DNA of 64,000 nucleotides from Candidatus Heimdallarchaeota archaeon (lineage in GTDB: Archaea; Asgardarchaeota; Heimdallarchaeia; Hodarchaeales; Hodarchaeaceae). The position numbers and the translations under genes are program-made. Numbering within the stretch: the stretch's first letter is position 1; each line of letters begins with the position of its first letter. The stretch spans positions 392,769 to 456,768 of the forward strand of contig RDOB01000004.1 of NCBI GenBank assembly GCA_011364965.1, read 5' to 3'. Below the pieces are notes generated by a model. It was not told where the DNA came from, ran no database searches, and was given only the letters and a program-made list of their open reading frames with translations. Shown here piece after piece: positions 7,275-12,126 of this stretch.

Positions 7275-7475
7275 CTACGAGAAAATAGAGGTTAATCGTT
7301 GAAGTAACTCATCTGCATTTACTAATAACCAATCAAGAACTCCAGTTACAATACTTAGGATCAATAAAAAACCAAATAAACTTAATCCAATTAATATTCC
7401 TTCTTCCACGAGTGGAGATCCTCTTCTTTTTTGAAACAATAATTTGATAGTTCTCTTAGAAAATGACAAGATCAT
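7275..7475 (-). CDS. Small type IV/Flp-like prepilin with class III signal peptide
   Basis: MILSFSKRTIKLLFQKRRG/SPLVEEGILIGLSLFGFLLILSIVTG: basic leader, G at -1, E at +5, long hydrophobic helix. GGTGAGG SD-like motif before ATG 7475. Confidence 0.7.
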   Translation of the reverse strand: MILSFSKRTIKLLFQKRRGSPLVEEGILIGLSLFGFLLILSIVTGVLDWLLVNADELLQRLTSIFS

Positions 7476-7570: not shown

Positions 7571-8206
7571 ATGGAAGTATCGGTGTGCTTAGTGAAATTT
7601 ATTCCAACAAAACAGGTTAAGCCATTAAAAATAATTGTTTTAGGGGAAGGAGGTGTTGGAAAAACAACGATTTCAAAGACTTTCACTAGTAATTCGTGTT
7701 TTAAAGACGCTAGACAAACTATTGCAGTAGAATTTCATTCTATAATTTTTAATCTGGATTCAACCAAATTCAAGCTTCAAATATGGGATTTGGGAGGTCA
7801 AGAGCAATTCAAAAACATGGGAGTCTTTGGAGATTTTTGTAGAGGAGCAGATGCTGCTATCCTATGTTTTGATCTCACTGACTTATCCACTTTATTTTCG
7901 ATTCCTGATTGGTTAAAGTTCATAGAAAATGACACACCTAAATTTTTAGTCGGAACAAAGTATGATCTTGCTTCAACTGAAGAAAAAACATTTGATATAA
8001 CTTCATTCGAAGAAAAGTTTCATTGTGTTGATTCATATATTTGTTCCTCTAAAGAAATTAGTTCTGTTATCCAGATCTTTAAGGGCGTTATTGACTTTCT
8101 AGAAAACGGGAAAAATAGTCTACAATTGCCTTCCAAGACATCTGTTAAGATATCTAAACCTCTAGTATTATCACAAGGTGAGTTATATGCAAAAATTAAT
8201 AGGTAA
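7571..8206 (+). CDS. Rab-like small GTPase (Ras superfamily)
   Basis: G1 GEGGVGKT, TIAVEF, KLQIWDLGGQE, FCRGA, LCFDLT, G4 GTKYD, G5 CSSK. Confidence 0.93.
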   Translation: MEVSVCLVKFIPTKQVKPLKIIVLGEGGVGKTTISKTFTSNSCFKDARQTIAVEFHSIIFNLDSTKFKLQIWDLGGQEQFKNMGVFGDFCRGADAAILCFDLTDLSTLFSIPDWLKFIENDTPKFLVGTKYDLASTEEKTFDITSFEEKFHCVDSYICSSKEISSVIQIFKGVIDFLENGKNSLQLPSKTSVKISKPLVLSQGELYAKINR

Positions 8207-8930
8207 AATGAATAATAAACATGAAAATAAGAGAATTGTAAGTGGTGTGCCAGGATTCAATCGTTTAGTTGAAGGTGGTTTTAGGGAAAATTCAGTAAAT
8301 GTCGTCATTGCTGACCCTGGTTGCGGAAAATCAACTTTTTGTTGGCAATTCTGTGCTGAAGAGCCAGAAGCCCCTGCATTATATGTCTCCTTAGAACAGA
8401 ATCTAGATTCAGTGCTAAGAGATTGTCGTGATATTGGCCTGAATAATTTTGAAGACAAATATAGGAGAGGTCGTTTGCAATTCCAAGTTGCGTTTAGCGA
8501 GGATTCTGATATGACCTCTGGAGAAATCGGTTTGAGATTTTTTATGTCTGAACTCCCTAAATATCTTGAAATAATCAGGGAAACAGCAGAACATTATCAT
8601 GGAGGAATACGAATAGCAATAGATCCCCTTACTCCATTATTATTGGAAATTCCAGATTTGAACCAGCAACGAAATGCCATAAATCGAATATTTACATCTT
8701 TAAGAAAGATTGGTACAGCTGTTGTTACAATAGAGAAAGGATTTGGGGAATCTTTAGCGAAAGTGCCATTATTTCTTGCAGATTCCATTCTTGAATTAGA
8801 ACATATTGGTCTTGGTGGTATATACAACCGAACACTCCGTGTTCGTAAGTTTCGAGGTTCTGCACATGCTGAGACTCCTCAACCGATTCATTTTGAAACT
8901 GGAAAGGGGTTATCGGTATATGAAATCTAA
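8178..8930 (+). CDS. Single-domain KaiC/RAD55-like ATPase
   Basis: SGVPGFNRLVEGGF, Walker A ADPGCGKS, YVSLEQ, Walker B IAIDP, LADSIL, VRKFRG. Confidence 0.9.
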   Translation: MSYMQKLIGKMNNKHENKRIVSGVPGFNRLVEGGFRENSVNVVIADPGCGKSTFCWQFCAEEPEAPALYVSLEQNLDSVLRDCRDIGLNNFEDKYRRGRLQFQVAFSEDSDMTSGEIGLRFFMSELPKYLEIIRETAEHYHGGIRIAIDPLTPLLLEIPDLNQQRNAINRIFTSLRKIGTAVVTIEKGFGESLAKVPLFLADSILELEHIGLGGIYNRTLRVRKFRGSAHAETPQPIHFETGKGLSVYEI

Positions 8931-9351
8931 TATTTTAGAATTGAAGCCCTCAATACCCTCTCTTCTTCGAACTATAGATCAGGAATTAGGGCATTTGAAC
9001 AACTTCATCGATATTCAGGCTGTTTTCCTCTTTAGAATCGATGGATATGTTTTGAAGTCCCATTATAGTACAAATCGCTCAAATAATCTCTTGCATGTCA
9101 TAGGTTGGGTTAAGCAAATTATCTCTAAAACTATGGAGGAATTGCAGAGAGGATCCAGATCCGTTAAATATGACAAAGAAATAAACGTAAATGAGTCTAT
9201 TCCAGTCTATTTCTATCGTGCAGGTCAATCCAGTATTTTAGTAACCTTTCTTAGGTCAAAAGCAAATACTGGATTAATGGAAATTGAGATGAGTCGAACT
9301 GCAAAACGTTTGAGCTATATAATTGATAATTTTGATAGTTTAGAGGTTTAA
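8920..9351 (+). CDS. Roadblock/LC7 (MglB-like) domain protein
   Basis: IQAVFLFRIDGYVLKS, beta-meander, ANTGLMEIEMSRTAKRL C-terminal helix. ATG 8920 overlaps the upstream stop, so it is preferred over the 8806 start. Confidence 0.75.
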   Translation: MKSNILELKPSIPSLLRTIDQELGHLNNFIDIQAVFLFRIDGYVLKSHYSTNRSNNLLHVIGWVKQIISKTMEELQRGSRSVKYDKEINVNESIPVYFYRAGQSSILVTFLRSKANTGLMEIEMSRTAKRLSYIIDNFDSLEV

Positions 9352-9353
9352 AA

Positions 9354-10730
9354 ATGATTAATGCCTCGGTTGGTCTATTTATTAATCACGATCTAAATTA
9401 TGCAACACAAAAAGCCTTAGAACAGGCTGAAGCGAAGTTGGATGGGGATCCCTCTCTCATTCTATATTTTACCGGGACTCATCTTGGGGGTTCCCAGACA
9501 TACGATAGAGCATTAAGGATTATCAAGCAGAAATATCCCAGAATTCCCTTGGCAGGATGTTCAGGAATCGGAATATGTGATAAACATGATTATGGTCTAA
9601 AAGGGGCTGGTATTCTCCTAGTAACAGGGATCACCGCTAGAACTTCACTTATAAAGCGTTTTAGAATTGGTACGAGTCTAAAAGCTCGCAAAATTCGACG
9701 GAATTGTAATAAAATAAATCGTATTGAAAAAAAAAGAGGATCGAACACAACTTTCCTTTTTTTTCCCCCTGGACTTGGTTTTCCCAAATTCTTAATTAAT
9801 TTACTAAATCATAAGATTGAAGGCTTTAATCCCTTTTTTCCTCTGAATAATCGCATTTGGCGATTGTTTCCTTTATTATCGAAACTTTCTGGTAAGTTTG
9901 CTGGATTCGCTATGGACATTGCTGGGATTGGAATCTCCTACTCGGCGGCTTGGCCTCTGTTTTCACAATTATATGAGGATGGTATTCATTTTACCGGCAC
10001 ATTTGGTACCGATCCTCTTACCATGAATAAATCATATCAATTCAGTAATTTTAAAGCATATAAGGACTCTTTAGTTTATGTTTCCATTAGTTCTCCTTTT
10101 TTACACTTTACAAGTCAAACTGATAGTGGTGCTCAAATAATTCCTCAAAAAACTTTCGATTTGGATAGTTATCTAAATGGGGGTTTTATTCCCAGAATTA
10201 GAAAGAAATGGGGAAAACTTGCATTATTAGAGCTTTTTGACATGGAAAAAACTCCTGAAATCTTAGAAGAATGTATTCAACGATATTTCTACTATCATCC
10301 ATTTCGACCATTGTGCGTGATTGATAACTCAAACAATCAAAATATTTATTGTTTAGCAGTAAATCCAAATCTCAATCACGCGCTGATTACAGCGCCTAAC
10401 CAAGTTGCTAAGCAATTAATCAAAACATCTAGAAATAGATTAAATGCATATATTTGTGATCAGAGTTCTCAAACTATTGAATCCTTACTAAAGGAAACTT
10501 TGTCAAAACAGGTTTCAAAAAACACCCTATTCGGTTTATTTTTCGATTGTGGGAATAGAGCAATGATCATTGGTGATAGATTCGACCAATACTCAAAGGT
10601 TTATGCTGATAACTTAAATATTCCTTATTTGGTTGTCATATCTGGAGGTGAAATAAATTCGCAGACATTCCCTATTGTTAACATGAGTTTAATCTCCAGT
10701 TTGGCACACGGAACCATAAATTCTCCCTAG
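9354..10730 (+). CDS. FIST N/C-domain sensory protein
   Basis: PSLILYF, IPLAGCSGIG (FIST_N); GLFFDCGNR and SGGEI (FIST_C). Confidence 0.78.
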   Translation: MINASVGLFINHDLNYATQKALEQAEAKLDGDPSLILYFTGTHLGGSQTYDRALRIIKQKYPRIPLAGCSGIGICDKHDYGLKGAGILLVTGITARTSLIKRFRIGTSLKARKIRRNCNKINRIEKKRGSNTTFLFFPPGLGFPKFLINLLNHKIEGFNPFFPLNNRIWRLFPLLSKLSGKFAGFAMDIAGIGISYSAAWPLFSQLYEDGIHFTGTFGTDPLTMNKSYQFSNFKAYKDSLVYVSISSPFLHFTSQTDSGAQIIPQKTFDLDSYLNGGFIPRIRKKWGKLALLELFDMEKTPEILEECIQRYFYYHPFRPLCVIDNSNNQNIYCLAVNPNLNHALITAPNQVAKQLIKTSRNRLNAYICDQSSQTIESLLKETLSKQVSKNTLFGLFFDCGNRAMIIGDRFDQYSKVYADNLNIPYLVVISGGEINSQTFPIVNMSLISSLAHGTINSP

Positions 10731-10749
10731 AATGGAGGATTAAACCAAA

Positions 10750-12126
10750 TTGGCTGTAATTCATTCTATACTAGGAATTTCAGCAATTCCAAATGAATTT
10801 CAAATATTAACAATGAAATATTTTGGATTACAGGTAGTAGTATCAGGTATCTATCTAAGTTATGCTTGGATTTCTCTTTATTATTTAGTAATATTGAACT
10901 CGGTTTCATTGTATAGTTATATTGTTGCAATAGGTATGCTTTGCGGAGCATTATTAGATTTTCCTTTGGGACTAATAACTGACCGTTTTGGCCAGAAGAA
11001 AGCTTATTGTGGGGCTTTATCATGTCTTTTAATTTATTATTTAGGGTTAATATTTGCTAAAAGTGCATTTGACCTTCTAGTATTGGAAATTATTGTAGGA
11101 GTTTATTCAGCTTTAATTTCTGGATCCTTCATTACTTGGTTTATGAATTCTTGGGAACTAATCTCTATGAATATAGGAAAAGAGTCAAAAATCCAATTTA
11201 ATGCAATTATGAGTAATATTAATTCTATTAAAACAGTCCTAGTAGCTACAATGACTATCTTTGGAGGTTTTTTATTAAATAAATTAGCTATTCCTCCTCA
11301 AGGCATTTTTCTCTTACAATCTGCAATAGCAGGCTTTGGAATTCTATTAGGAATTCGATTTTTGAACACCCCAATCACAGAAAGCAGAATGGAATCTGAA
11401 GTTCCAAGATCTGATAGGACTAATGGTTTTCATACATTAGCTAAAATTAGAGAACTGATATTACTTCTTCAATCACGATATGCCAAGGTAACAATCTTCT
11501 TTCTCAGCTTATCCCTTTTGGGTTTTACATCAATGGCATTTCAGACACTGCTTTTCACGCCATTATTATACGAATTAACCACTCACTCCCCTATTTTTAA
11601 ATCCACTGAGAAAATTTTGATAACATATACTACATTATCAATATTTCTAATTTCCTTTATACAAGCTGGTTCCGATTTTATCCACGCGATTGCATGTAGG
11701 CTGTCTGGACGAATATTCAACAATGTTATTTCCCCTTATCGAATTTTAATTGTCATTTATTCATTGATTTATCCAGTTGTGTGGTTATTTCTCGTATTTC
11801 TCCTCTCATCTAGTGTTCCAAAGTATTTCAAACTTATTGGCGTAATAAGTATTTACTTAATACGATTAATTATAGTTGGTCTAATTTCAAGTTTGTATTG
11901 GCAATTTTATATGAAAATTACTATAGTTAAAATTCGAAGTTCTCAAGAATCGTTATTTAATACTATTTACCTAGTAGTTTCAGTTTTGGGATTTGCTCTA
12001 ATTGGTATTATCATAGAAAGATTCAGTTTGGAATCTAGTCTTCTTAGTCTTTTTATAATTAGTACCCTTGGCATTTTCCTTTTAATTATTGGGGATTATG
12101 CTGAAATTTCTATTAAAAATAATTGA
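10750..12126 (+). CDS. MFS transporter
   Basis: About 12 hydrophobic segments; motif A-like DFPLGLITDRFGQK; SALISGS. Confidence 0.85.
   Translation: MAVIHSILGISAIPNEFQILTMKYFGLQVVVSGIYLSYAWISLYYLVILNSVSLYSYIVAIGMLCGALLDFPLGLITDRFGQKKAYCGALSCLLIYYLGLIFAKSAFDLLVLEIIVGVYSALISGSFITWFMNSWELISMNIGKESKIQFNAIMSNINSIKTVLVATMTIFGGFLLNKLAIPPQGIFLLQSAIAGFGILLGIRFLNTPITESRMESEVPRSDRTNGFHTLAKIRELILLLQSRYAKVTIFFLSLSLLGFTSMAFQTLLFTPLLYELTTHSPIFKSTEKILITYTTLSIFLISFIQAGSDFIHAIACRLSGRIFNNVISPYRILIVIYSLIYPVVWLFLVFLLSSSVPKYFKLIGVISIYLIRLIIVGLISSLYWQFYMKITIVKIRSSQESLFNTIYLVVSVLGFALIGIIIERFSLESSLLSLFIISTLGIFLLIIGDYAEISIKNN

What the first reader, a model, noticed from the sequence alone, without database searches (positions are those of the whole stretch)
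7571..12126. Rab-like GTPase / KaiC-like ATPase / Roadblock / FIST / MFS operon: candidate nutrient-sensing switch
Seen: five co-oriented genes that overlap or are at most 19 nt apart. Established: Roadblock proteins regulate small GTPases (MglA/MglB control type IV pilus polarity; Rag-Ragulator relays amino-acid signals). FIST domains are proposed small-ligand or amino-acid sensors. Archaeal KaiC-like ATPases (e.g. ArlH) act as hubs at type IV filament systems and transporters. Inference: a solute imported by the MFS is sensed by FIST and relayed through KaiC and Roadblock to a Rab-type (not MglA-type) GTPase, possibly controlling the divergent pilin. This would be a prokaryote-style sensory operon wired to a eukaryote-type GTPase. 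I do not know a characterised system with this exact composition.
Basis: partly seen in the sequence, partly recalled or inferred. Interest (0 to 1): 0.85.

Follow-up and report, generated by a model that had tools for sequence, protein, structure and literature searches.

The report
KaiC-Roadblock-FIST operon with Rab-like GTPase
A Hodarchaeales (Asgard) archaeon keeps five tightly packed genes together: an old archaeal trio (KaiC-type ATPase, Roadblock-fold protein, FIST protein) plus a Rab-like GTPase and a membrane transporter, which names concrete candidate regulators for one otherwise unassignable Asgard GTPase, although its function is untested.

Summary
Five co-oriented genes (7571-12126, +) overlap or lie at most 19 nt apart. 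They encode a Rab-like GTPase, a single-domain KaiC-like ATPase, a 143-aa protein, a FIST protein and an MFS transporter. The 143-aa protein has no Pfam hit in the local library, but it models as a Roadblock fold and is a profile-level relative of Roadblock/LC7. The FIST fold is also confirmed.

The order is kept in 14 of 18 same-genus loci. A rearranged KaiC-Roadblock-FIST-GTPase set occurs in other Heimdallarchaeia. KaiC-Roadblock-FIST-MFS occurs in another Asgard class, and KaiC-AF0774-AF0772-UbiA in Euryarchaeota. The core is therefore the triad. The GTPase and the MFS are lineage-specific additions.

New here: the closest paralogue of the module GTPase sits directly behind a canonical Roadblock gene in 10 of 22 genus genomes. 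One relative fuses this Roadblock type to a degenerate Ras domain. Both point to Roadblock-GTPase pairing.

The complex prediction gave no answer.

This scan has flagged the same module before on other DNA. I found no paper describing it. I class it as a new variant of known kinds (KaiC hubs, Roadblock-GTPase systems).

The parts
7571..8206 (+). Rab-like small GTPase, 211 aa. G1 GEGGVGKTT, G2 Thr50, G3 WDLGGQE, G4 GTKYD, G5 CSSK. No C-terminal Cys prenylation motif.
   Evidence: Pfam Ras 1.5e-26. Best PDB matches are all Rab, led by Rab33B at 3e-20. Motifs conserved in orthologues. Falls in a Hodarchaeales-specific clade with 100/100 support.
8187..8930 (+). Single-domain KaiC-like (RecA-superfamily) ATPase, 247 aa. 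Walker A ADPGCGKST (first Gly replaced by Ala). SLEQ in place of the KaiC EE pair. Walker B IDPLT. Lacks the ~65-aa C-terminal tail found in non-Hodarchaeales orthologues.
   Evidence: Pfam PF06745 2.4e-27. PDB KaiC 1.4e-29. NCBIfam hits, including ArlH, are all far below their cut-offs. Alignments.
8920..9351 (+). AF0774-type (PF27410) Roadblock-fold protein, 143 aa. Its start overlaps the KaiC stop by 11 nt. Family invariants: L37, R39, D41, W63, F98, E123.
   Evidence: AF2 pLDDT 86.9 with topology a-b-b-a-b-b-b-a. Foldseek top hits are Asgard Roadblock3 9jue, MglB 3t1r/1j3w, MglC and LAMTOR, at E around 1e-6. hhalign against this genome's own Robl_LC7 paralogues gives 95.5%, E 1.6e-8. Homologues carry PF27410 and JGI names them 'Roadblock/LC7/MglB'.
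9354..10730 (+). Stand-alone FIST protein (FIST_N + FIST_C), 458 aa. Conserved C399-x-N-R ... G407-D ... G431-G-E433 block. No invariant His.
   Evidence: Pfam. AF2 pLDDT 81.8, pTM 0.85. ESM Atlas TM 0.73-0.79 to FIST_N/FIST_C clusters. PDB top hit is the FBXO22 FIST domain, E 1e-6. hhalign to euryarchaeal AF0772-type proteins gives 88%, E 3e-6. Invariant columns.
10750..12126 (+). MFS transporter, 458 aa, substrate unknown. A lineage-specific accessory of the module.
   Evidence: MFS_1 30.9 bits, below cut-off. Motif A and hydrophobic segments. Atlas features 0.99. Present after FIST in all same-genus loci that reach that far. No PDB sequence match.
7275..7475 (-). Neighbour, not shown to belong to the module. 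A divergent 66-aa membrane protein with a variable basic leader ending [KR]R[GA], followed by a near-invariant SPLVEEGILIGLSLFGFLL... segment (looks like a class III / prepilin-type signal).
   Evidence: Alignment of 17 orthologues. No Pfam hit. The family is found in 68 of 81 genomes of the class and lies about 21 kb from the module in family f3.

Best explanation
This is a chromosomal signalling operon built around an old archaeal triad: a single-domain KaiC-like ATPase, a divergent Roadblock-fold protein (Pfam AF0774 type) and a stand-alone FIST protein (AF0772 type).

Proposed mechanism (inferred, not shown):
1. The FIST protein is the input. It binds a small ligand, cofactor or protein and modulates the nucleotide or phosphorylation state of the adjacent KaiC-like ATPase. 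This mirrors the stand-alone FIST protein NosP, which binds and controls its neighbouring kinase NosK.
2. The Roadblock protein, probably a dimer made in fixed ratio with KaiC (their genes overlap), couples the KaiC state to a small GTPase. It would act as a GAP or GEF-type platform, as MglB and CvnB do.
3. In Hodarchaeales and Heimdallarchaeaceae a dedicated Rab-like GTPase was recruited into the operon as the output switch.
4. The MFS transporter is a lineage-specific accessory. It may be a membrane target or a supplier of the ligand. It is not a constant part of the system.

Shown here: the genes, the folds, the tight spacing, and the conservation and modularity across lineages.
Inferred: every protein contact and the direction of signal flow.
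For: - Families and folds.
- Tight spacing.
- Conserved order GTPase-KaiC-Rbl-FIST-MFS in 14 of 18 same-genus loci, plus the window itself.
- GTPase-KaiC-Rbl-FIST without MFS in a divergent relative, L115, at 36-65% identity.
- KaiC-Rbl-FIST-GTPase in nine loci of two other families.
- KaiC-Rbl-FIST-MFS with an unrelated MFS in another class, L046.
- KaiC-AF0774-AF0772-UbiA in Euryarchaeota.
- KaiC and Rbl are always adjacent and overlap by 4-11 nt.
- The Rbl family is small and specific: 96 clusters among 1.84 billion representatives. In the phylum it is strong only in f1 (19/20), f3 (26/29), f4 (1/11) and f22 (1/1).

Roadblock-GTPase link:
- A Rab-like GTPase joins the triad at two different positions, 5' in Hodarchaeales and 3' in f3.
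- The module GTPases of both groups fall on one side of a branch (SH-aLRT 93).
- P0083 fuses an AF0774-type Roadblock to a degenerate Ras domain and is seen on two contigs.
- The closest paralogue of the module GTPase (50-57% identity, same 100/100 clade) lies 10-40 nt behind a canonical Robl_LC7 gene in 10 of 22 genus genomes. These include the two genomes whose module lacks the GTPase.

Precedents:
- NosP-NosK (PMC12570481).
- Conservon CvnA-D (PMC13343842, PMC13621833).
Against: - No interaction, expression or phenotype data exist.
- The ancestral triad works without any in-operon GTPase (Euryarchaeota; L046; L028 and L029). The Roadblock's primary partner may therefore be KaiC or FIST rather than a GTPase.
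- In both arrangements the GTPase and Rbl genes are separated by KaiC or FIST.
- The Hodarchaeales KaiC deviates in Walker A (first Gly replaced by Ala) and in the second catalytic Glu (now Gln), so its activity is uncertain.
- FIST has no invariant His, so NosP-like heme ligation is not supported. The only solved FIST domain (FBXO22) binds a protein, not a small ligand.
- Orthology of the f1 and f3 GTPases is not firmly resolved. Reciprocal best hits are ambiguous and long-branch attraction is possible.
- This window's genome lacks the Robl-GTPase paralogue pair in its assembled part.
Confidence: 0.5

Rival explanations
1. The Roadblock-fold protein is only an accessory or regulatory subunit of the KaiC-like ATPase, the ancestral role in the triad. 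The GTPase then talks to KaiC or FIST directly, or is simply co-expressed, and there is no MglB-like action of this Roadblock on the GTPase.
For: - The triad exists without a GTPase in Euryarchaeota, in L046 and in two genus members.
- KaiC-Rbl adjacency and overlap are universal, whereas Rbl-GTPase adjacency never occurs inside the module.
- Loss of the KaiC C-terminal tail coincides with the GTPase-first arrangement. This hints at a KaiC-GTPase relationship.
Against: - The AF0774-Ras fusion P0083.
- Canonical Roadblock-GTPase pairs for the closest GTPase paralogue.
- The Roadblock fold is the classic small-GTPase regulator platform (structures matched).
Confidence: 0.25
2. A solute imported by the MFS is sensed by FIST and relayed through KaiC and Roadblock to the GTPase, which controls the divergent pilin-like gene. 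This would be a Rag/Ragulator-like nutrient switch.
For: - An MFS gene follows FIST in all same-genus loci that reach that far.
- An unrelated MFS follows FIST in another Asgard class.
- The small divergent gene has a prepilin-like signal.
Against: - The MFS is absent from f3 clusters, L115 and the euryarchaeal triads.
- The substrate is unknown.
- The pilin-like gene is a class-wide gene that lies about 21 kb away in f3.
- The GTPase is single-domain, without a Rag-type C-terminal Roadblock domain. Gtr1_RagA matches only 63 residues at 23 bits.
Confidence: 0.1
3. The triad is not a signal-transduction device. It would be an ATP-driven assembly or quality-control unit for membrane proteins or lipid and quinone enzymes, which would explain the UbiA or MFS neighbours. 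FIST would serve as a substrate-binding receptor, as in FBXO22.
For: - Membrane-protein genes recur next to the triad: UbiA in two euryarchaeal loci and MFS in two Asgard lineages.
- The only solved FIST domain is a protein-substrate receptor.
Against: - FIST domains in bacteria are overwhelmingly fused to signalling outputs such as GGDEF, EAL, MCP, SpoIIE and HD.
- KaiC-like ATPases are regarded as archaeal signalling hubs (cited in PMC5847659).
- In f3 and L115 there is no membrane-protein neighbour.
Confidence: 0.1
4. The GTPase and MFS are neighbours without functional coupling. They would have hitch-hiked in a conserved chromosomal stretch of one genus.
For: Genus-level synteny also includes the unrelated RIO, KH and PAN genes.
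Against: - A GTPase is associated with the triad in two families at different positions, and in the divergent locus L115 with different flanks.
- The coding regions overlap.
- The Rbl-Ras fusion.
Confidence: 0.05

Closest known systems
Euryarchaeal KaiC - AF0774 - AF0772 gene triad (Pfam PF27410 'AF0774', PF27411 'AF0772_C'), uncharacterised
   Same: Same three families in the same order, with an overlapping KaiC/Rbl junction. Seen here in GCA_001914405.1 and in soda-lake contigs. The Rbl profile matches at 1e-12. The FIST proteins relate at hhalign 88%.
   Different: The euryarchaeal version has no GTPase and no MFS, and UbiA is the neighbour. Its KaiC has a canonical Walker A and a ~65-aa C-terminal tail that the window's KaiC has lost. 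No function is known for either version.
Archaeal KaiC-like ATPase signalling hubs (Makarova, Galperin and Koonin, mBio 2017; known to me only through citations in PMC5847659 and PMC6393860)
   Same: A single-domain KaiC-family ATPase encoded next to sensor and adaptor proteins.
   Different: I could not read the paper because it is not held. I therefore cannot say whether this neighbourhood is listed there. No held paper contains both 'FIST domain' and 'KaiC'.
MglA/MglB (Myxococcus, Thermus): a Ras-like GTPase with its Roadblock-dimer GAP
   Same: A Roadblock-fold protein and a small GTPase in one operon. MglB structures are among the best fold matches.
   Different: The GTPase here is Rab/Ras-type with Asp in G3, not MglA-type. 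The two genes are not adjacent. The Roadblock is the divergent AF0774 type and falls below the PF03259 threshold. In the 2014 survey, 0 of 121 Ras-like 'Rup' GTPases were coupled to MglB (PMC4316618).
Actinobacterial conservons / G-protein systems (CvnA-D, mfp operon)
   Same: An ATP-using sensor component, a Roadblock protein and a small GTPase in one operon (PMC13343842, PMC13621833).
   Different: The ATPase here is KaiC-like, not histidine-kinase-like. No CvnC/DUF742 homologue was seen. The GTPase is Rab-like, not MglA-like. Sensing is assigned to a separate FIST protein.
NosP-NosK (stand-alone FIST protein controlling an adjacent kinase)
   Same: A stand-alone FIST_N+FIST_C protein encoded beside an ATP-dependent signalling enzyme (PMC12570481).
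   Different: The partner here is a KaiC-like ATPase, not a histidine kinase. No invariant His is available for heme ligation. There is no response regulator.
Rag GTPases with Ragulator (LAMTOR Roadblock proteins), v-ATPase and SLC38A9
   Same: The cast resembles it: Roadblock-fold protein, small GTPase, ATPase, transporter. LAMTOR chains appear among the fold matches.
   Different: There is no Rag-type C-terminal Roadblock domain on the GTPase and no LAMTOR1-like anchor. The ATPase and transporter families are unrelated. The resemblance is by analogy only.

Membership tests
Roadblock/LC7/MglB superfamily (8920-9351 product) | alpha-beta-beta-alpha-beta-beta-beta fold | tested here: met
   AF2 model with pLDDT 86.9 and elements H-E-E-H-E-E-E-H. 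Foldseek probability 1.00 to MglB, Asgard Roadblock, MglC and LAMTOR.
Roadblock/LC7/MglB superfamily (8920-9351 product) | Sequence match to Pfam PF03259 at its threshold | tested here: not met
   No PF03259 hit even at E up to 10, and the product is not among the genome's 8 PF03259 matches. Profile-profile homology to those paralogues is 95.5%, E 1.6e-8. It is a distant member, filed by Pfam as PF27410.
Roadblock/LC7/MglB superfamily (8920-9351 product) | Dimerisation and GAP or GEF-platform action on a small GTPase | not testable with these tools
   Needs biochemistry.
Rab family GTPase (7571-8206 product) | Complete G1-G5 motifs with a catalytic Gln in DxxGQ | tested here: met
   GEGGVGKTT, T50, WDLGGQE, GTKYD and CSSK, all conserved in orthologues.
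Rab family GTPase (7571-8206 product) | Closest to Rab among solved small GTPases, with RabF-like motifs | tested here: met
   Top PDB hits are all Rab. IAVEF and KLQIWDLGGQEQF resemble RabF1 and RabF2. The RabF consensus is recalled from memory.
Rab family GTPase (7571-8206 product) | C-terminal Cys prenylation motif | tested here: not met
   The C-terminus is ...LYAKINR, and orthologues end in ...LLIS. The protein is therefore 'Rab-like', not a bona fide Rab.
MglA family | G3 lacking the conserved Asp, and genomic coupling to MglB | tested here: not met
   G3 is WDLGGQE, with Asp. All best matches are eukaryote-type Rab.
KaiC family (8187-8930 product) | PF06745 domain with Walker A Lys and Walker B Asp | tested here: met
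   96.2 bits against a 26.6 cut-off. GCGKST and IDPLT are present. Deviations are the first Walker A Gly replaced by Ala, and EE changed to EQ.
KaiC family (8187-8930 product) | Circadian-type duplicated CI-CII architecture | tested here: not met
   247 aa with a single domain. Scores 80 bits against a cut-off of 408 for the KaiC equivalog.
ArlH/FlaH | NCBIfam ArlH equivalog score | tested here: not met
   33.5 bits against a cut-off of 215.
FIST (9354-10730 product) | FIST_N and FIST_C domains | tested here: met
   FIST_N scores 36.4 bits, above 23.2. FIST_C scores 25.4, below 28.5, but the orthologue in L046 passes both. The whole-length fold matches FIST_N/FIST_C clusters at TM 0.73-0.79 and matches FBXO22.
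NosP-type heme FIST sensor | Heme binding through a conserved ligand | tested here: inconclusive
   No invariant His among 13 orthologues. There is one invariant Cys, C399. Cofactor binding needs experiment.
Major facilitator superfamily (10750-12126 product) | MFS_1 profile, motif A and about 12 TM helices | tested here: met
   The profile scores 30.9 bits, just below the 33.4 cut-off. Motif A GLITDRFGQKK and many hydrophobic segments are present. Atlas features score 0.99, and all ten best hits are MFS.
Actinobacterial conservon (CvnA-D) | Histidine-kinase-like CvnA, DUF742 CvnC and MglA-like CvnD | tested here: not met
   Pfam finds KaiC, FIST and Ras, with no HATPase_c or DUF742. The module works like a conservon at most by analogy.
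Anti-phage defence systems | Match to PADLOC models | tested here: not met
   No hit for any of the five proteins.

The most novel reading that the evidence does not exclude
In the archaeal lineage closest to eukaryotes, an ancient KaiC-Roadblock-FIST sensor was wired to a eukaryote-type (Rab-like) GTPase. The Roadblock dimer would act as its GAP or GEF platform at a membrane transporter. This would be a prokaryotic forerunner of Roadblock-based GTPase control of the Ragulator-Rag / MglB type, and the first assignable regulator set for an Asgard Ras-superfamily GTPase.
Probability: 0.15. Interest if true: 0.9.

Novelty: new variant of a known kind. Interest (0 to 1): 0.6.

Why it matters
Asgard genomes carry dozens of Ras-superfamily GTPases. 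This genome has at least 28. They also carry many Roadblock and longin proteins. Published work notes that the two are generally not in operons, so regulators cannot be matched to GTPases from genome layout (PMC10933270). An earlier survey found no Ras-like 'Rup' GTPase coupled to MglB (PMC4316618).

This module, together with the Roadblock-GTPase paralogue pairs found here in the same genus, gives specific and cheap hypotheses to test. One Rab-like GTPase subfamily now has two candidate Roadblock partners, a KaiC-like ATPase and a FIST protein.

The module also shows that a widespread but uncharacterised archaeal triad (KaiC-AF0774-AF0772) is a modular unit. It accepts different outputs or targets in different lineages: a GTPase, an MFS transporter, or UbiA.

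Tried and rejected
- Complex prediction with two Roadblock copies plus GTPase residues 12-186 returned 'no answer' (score 0.00, controls not run). This is not evidence either way.
- The look-up of sequencing runs listed no RNA holder, so co-transcription could not be examined.
- The Makarova 2017 paper is not held under its DOI or PMC id.
- Literature searches found nothing describing the module:
  - KaiC+FIST+Roadblock+archaea gave 0 papers.
  - 'FIST domain'+KaiC gave 0 papers.
  - AF0774/AF0772 gave only unrelated accession numbers.
- PF27410 is not in the local Pfam copy, so the family could not be searched by accession.
- Reciprocal best hits between the f1 and f3 module GTPases were ambiguous. 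A 64-row tree puts them on one side of a branch at SH-aLRT 93, together with two long-branch paralogues, so single versus double recruitment stays open. The internal order of module copies and paralogues in the Hodarchaeales clade is unresolved.
- Weaker AF0774-profile hits in other Asgard families (L047-L054, L057-L065) had no KaiC or FIST neighbours and are ordinary Roadblocks.
- Pairwise BLAST of the window FIST against euryarchaeal AF0772 was not significant. Only the profile comparison linked them.
- PDB sequence searches for FIST and MFS found nothing.
- PADLOC found nothing.
- The sigma-70 promoter scan was not run because it does not apply to archaea.

Full report
**Observation**

The region 7571-12126 holds five co-oriented ORFs on the + strand. 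Reading the DNA and aligning orthologues fixes the genes as follows:
- GTPase 7571-8206.
- KaiC-like ATPase 8187-8930.
- A 143-aa protein 8920-9351.
- FIST 9354-10730.
- MFS 10750-12126.

Pfam supports four of the five products:
- Ras at 93 bits.
- KaiC at 96 bits.
- FIST_N at 36 bits.
- FIST_C and MFS_1 just below their cut-offs.

The MFS call is backed by the motif A sequence GLITDRFGQKK, many hydrophobic segments and language-model features.

Base composition is even across the region. The flanks are housekeeping genes: RIO kinase, a KH/Dim2-like protein and PAN. No product matches a defence model.

The genome is a 2.97-Mb, 87%-complete assembly. Its nearest named relatives are Hodarchaeales / 'Candidatus Hodarchaeum' MAGs of the Heimdall group.

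**The two uncertain folds**

The 143-aa product has no Pfam hit. It is not among the eight PF03259 Roadblock genes of this genome. Four lines of evidence nevertheless place it in the Roadblock superfamily:
- With a 30-sequence alignment it models confidently (pLDDT 86.9) as alpha-beta-beta-alpha-beta-beta-beta-alpha.
- Its best structural matches are an Asgard Roadblock (9jue), MglB (3t1r, 1j3w, 6izw), MglC and LAMTOR chains.
- A profile of the family aligns with the genome's own canonical Roadblock paralogues at 95.5% probability, E 1.6e-8.
- The weak tail of an exhaustive profile search consists of PF03259 proteins.

Public records file the family as Pfam PF27410 'AF0774'. It is therefore a divergent Roadblock.

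The FIST protein also holds up:
- It models at pLDDT 81.8.
- It matches FIST_N/FIST_C clusters over about 375-413 residues at TM 0.73-0.79.
- Its top PDB hit is FBXO22, the solved eukaryotic FIST protein.

**The other components**

GTPase:
- Its best solved relatives are all Rab proteins.
- It has complete G motifs, including Asp and Gln in G3, so it is Ras/Rab-type rather than MglA-type.
- It lacks a C-terminal Cys motif.

KaiC-like protein:
- It is a single RecA-type domain and is not ArlH.
- In Hodarchaeales its Walker A begins with Ala instead of Gly.
- The KaiC Glu-Glu pair reads Glu-Gln.
- The ~65-residue C-terminal tail present in all other orthologues is missing.

**Conservation and anatomy of the module**

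| Arrangement | Where seen |
|---|---|
| RIO-KH-(small membrane gene, divergent)-GTPase-KaiC-Rbl-FIST-MFS | 14 of 18 same-genus loci |
| No GTPase between the small gene and KaiC | 2 same-genus loci (L028, L029) |
| Unassignable 164-aa ORF in the GTPase slot | 1 same-genus locus (L035) |
| Locus broken off inside Rbl | 1 same-genus locus (L038) |
| GTPase-KaiC-Rbl-FIST, then a PUA/PAPS-reductase gene | divergent metagenomic relative L115, 36-65% identity |
| KaiC-Rbl-FIST-GTPase, then a ~105-aa CxxC protein | nine loci of two other Heimdallarchaeia families |
| KaiC-Rbl-FIST-MFS | a genome of another Asgard class (L046) |
| KaiC-AF0774-AF0772_C, with UbiA next door | two euryarchaeal sources |

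Notes on the table:
- The MFS in L046 shares only motif A with the window's MFS.
- The euryarchaeal AF0772 proteins relate to the Asgard FIST proteins at hhalign 88%.

The AF0774 family is small, with 96 clusters at E up to 1e-3 among 1.84 billion representatives. In a 301-genome sample of the phylum it is strong only in f1 (19/20), f3 (26/29), f4 (1/11) and f22 (1/1).

I conclude that the conserved unit is the triad KaiC-Roadblock-FIST. Its KaiC and Rbl genes are always adjacent and overlapping. The GTPase, the MFS and UbiA are lineage-specific additions.

**Is the GTPase really tied to a Roadblock?**

Three observations bear on this.

1. A Rab-like GTPase has joined the triad at two different positions. 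In a 64-sequence tree with all paralogues of two genomes, the two sets of module GTPases fall on one side of a branch (SH-aLRT 93). Long-branch attraction cannot be excluded.
2. One protein cluster (P0083) fuses an AF0774-type Roadblock to a Ras-like domain that has lost its P-loop and DxxGQ motif. It occurs on two contigs.
3. The closest paralogue of the module GTPase is itself paired with a Roadblock gene.
   - The paralogue is 50-57% identical and sits inside the same 100/100 Hodarchaeales clade.
   - It lies 10-40 nt downstream of a canonical PF03259 Roadblock gene in 10 of 22 genomes of the genus.
   - Those ten include the two genomes whose module has no GTPase.
   - This window's genome has the paralogue on another contig but no adjacent Roadblock.

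One GTPase subfamily thus sits next to Roadblock-fold genes in two independent contexts. That contrasts with two published statements:
- Asgard GTPases are generally not in operons with Roadblock genes (PMC10933270).
- None of 121 prokaryotic Ras-like 'Rup' GTPases was coupled to MglB (PMC4316618).

**Mechanism**

The proposal is inferred by analogy:
1. FIST is the input and modulates the KaiC-like ATPase. The precedent is the stand-alone FIST protein NosP, which binds and controls its neighbouring kinase NosK (PMC12570481).
2. The Roadblock protein, made stoichiometrically with KaiC, links the ATPase state to the GTPase. The precedents are MglB and CvnB, which act on their GTPases (PMC13343842, PMC13621833).
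3. The Rab-like GTPase is the output.

I put about 0.9 on the triad being one functional unit. I put about 0.75 on the GTPase belonging to it functionally, about 0.5 on the Roadblock acting directly on the GTPase, and about 0.1-0.2 on the MFS supplying the FIST ligand.

Caveats:
- The triad functions without an in-operon GTPase in many lineages.
- FIST has no invariant His for heme, though it has one invariant Cys.
- The only solved FIST domain binds a protein.
- The Hodarchaeales KaiC has non-canonical catalytic motifs.

The divergent 66-aa gene has a variable basic leader ending [KR]R[GA], followed by a near-invariant hydrophobic segment. That fits a class III signal peptide. However, the family occurs in 68 of 81 genomes of the class and lies about 21 kb from the module in family f3. 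I see no specific link to the module.

**Known or new**

This scan has flagged the same module on other genomes.

I found no paper describing a KaiC-Roadblock-FIST(-GTPase) unit. I could not read the 2017 KaiC-hub paper.

I class the module as a new variant of known kinds (KaiC-centred hubs; Roadblock-GTPase systems). Its moderate-to-high interest lies in making an Asgard GTPase-regulator pairing directly testable.

Noticed in passing
L119:3626-4668 (G010), also L122-L129, L118, L142: A canonical Roadblock/LC7 gene (PF03259, 52-59 bits) is followed after 10-40 nt by the closest paralogue of the module GTPase. This occurs in 10 of 22 genomes of the genus. It is a second Roadblock-GTPase pairing for the same GTPase subfamily.
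   Followed up: yes
P0083; L088:6411-7424, L089:1198-2211: A 337-aa protein fuses an AF0774-type Roadblock to a Ras-like domain that has lost its P-loop (GNSNLLGLL) and DxxGQ motif. It is not next to KaiC or FIST.
   Followed up: partly
window 7275-7475 (-): A 66-aa membrane protein with a variable basic leader and a near-invariant SPLVEEGILIGLSLFGFLL... core. This resembles a prepilin or Flp-like class III signal. The family is present in 68 of 81 Heimdallarchaeia genomes and has no Pfam hit.
   Followed up: partly
L042:10588-10905, L039:10496-10816, L055:10330-10638: In the other family a conserved ~105-aa protein with CxxC and HA(N/D)DH motifs follows the GTPase. It has no Pfam or NCBIfam hit.
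   Followed up: partly
L042:6385-7152 (-), L055:6171-6941: The f3-type modules are flanked by a protein with PCI, DDRGK and UFM1-ligase-like matches. This may be a eukaryote-signature winged-helix protein.
   Followed up: no
L046:5853-6338 (-): In the other Asgard class, a 161-aa protein with weak longin-domain matches (Fuz_longin_1, Sybindin, both below cut-off) is encoded divergently from the KaiC-Rbl-FIST-MFS cluster. A LarA-like gene follows the MFS.
   Followed up: no
L093:7715-8653 (-), L094:8269-9192: A UbiA-family prenyltransferase lies next to the euryarchaeal KaiC-AF0774-AF0772 triad in both sources examined.
   Followed up: partly
G000 whole genome; C2:2166-5055: The genome holds at least 28 small Ras-superfamily GTPase genes and 8 canonical Roadblock genes. 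On contig C2 the module GTPase's paralogue sits among further GTPase-like ORFs.
   Followed up: partly
L119:4802-6178: An uninterrupted 458-aa MtmB-family (monomethylamine methyltransferase-like) gene lies directly after the Roadblock-GTPase pair in G010. There is no in-frame stop where a pyrrolysine codon might be expected.
   Followed up: no
L035:9454-9948 (-): In the 'Candidatus Hodarchaeum mangrovi' locus the GTPase slot holds a 164-aa ORF with no Pfam hit and no detectable similarity to the GTPase.
   Followed up: partly
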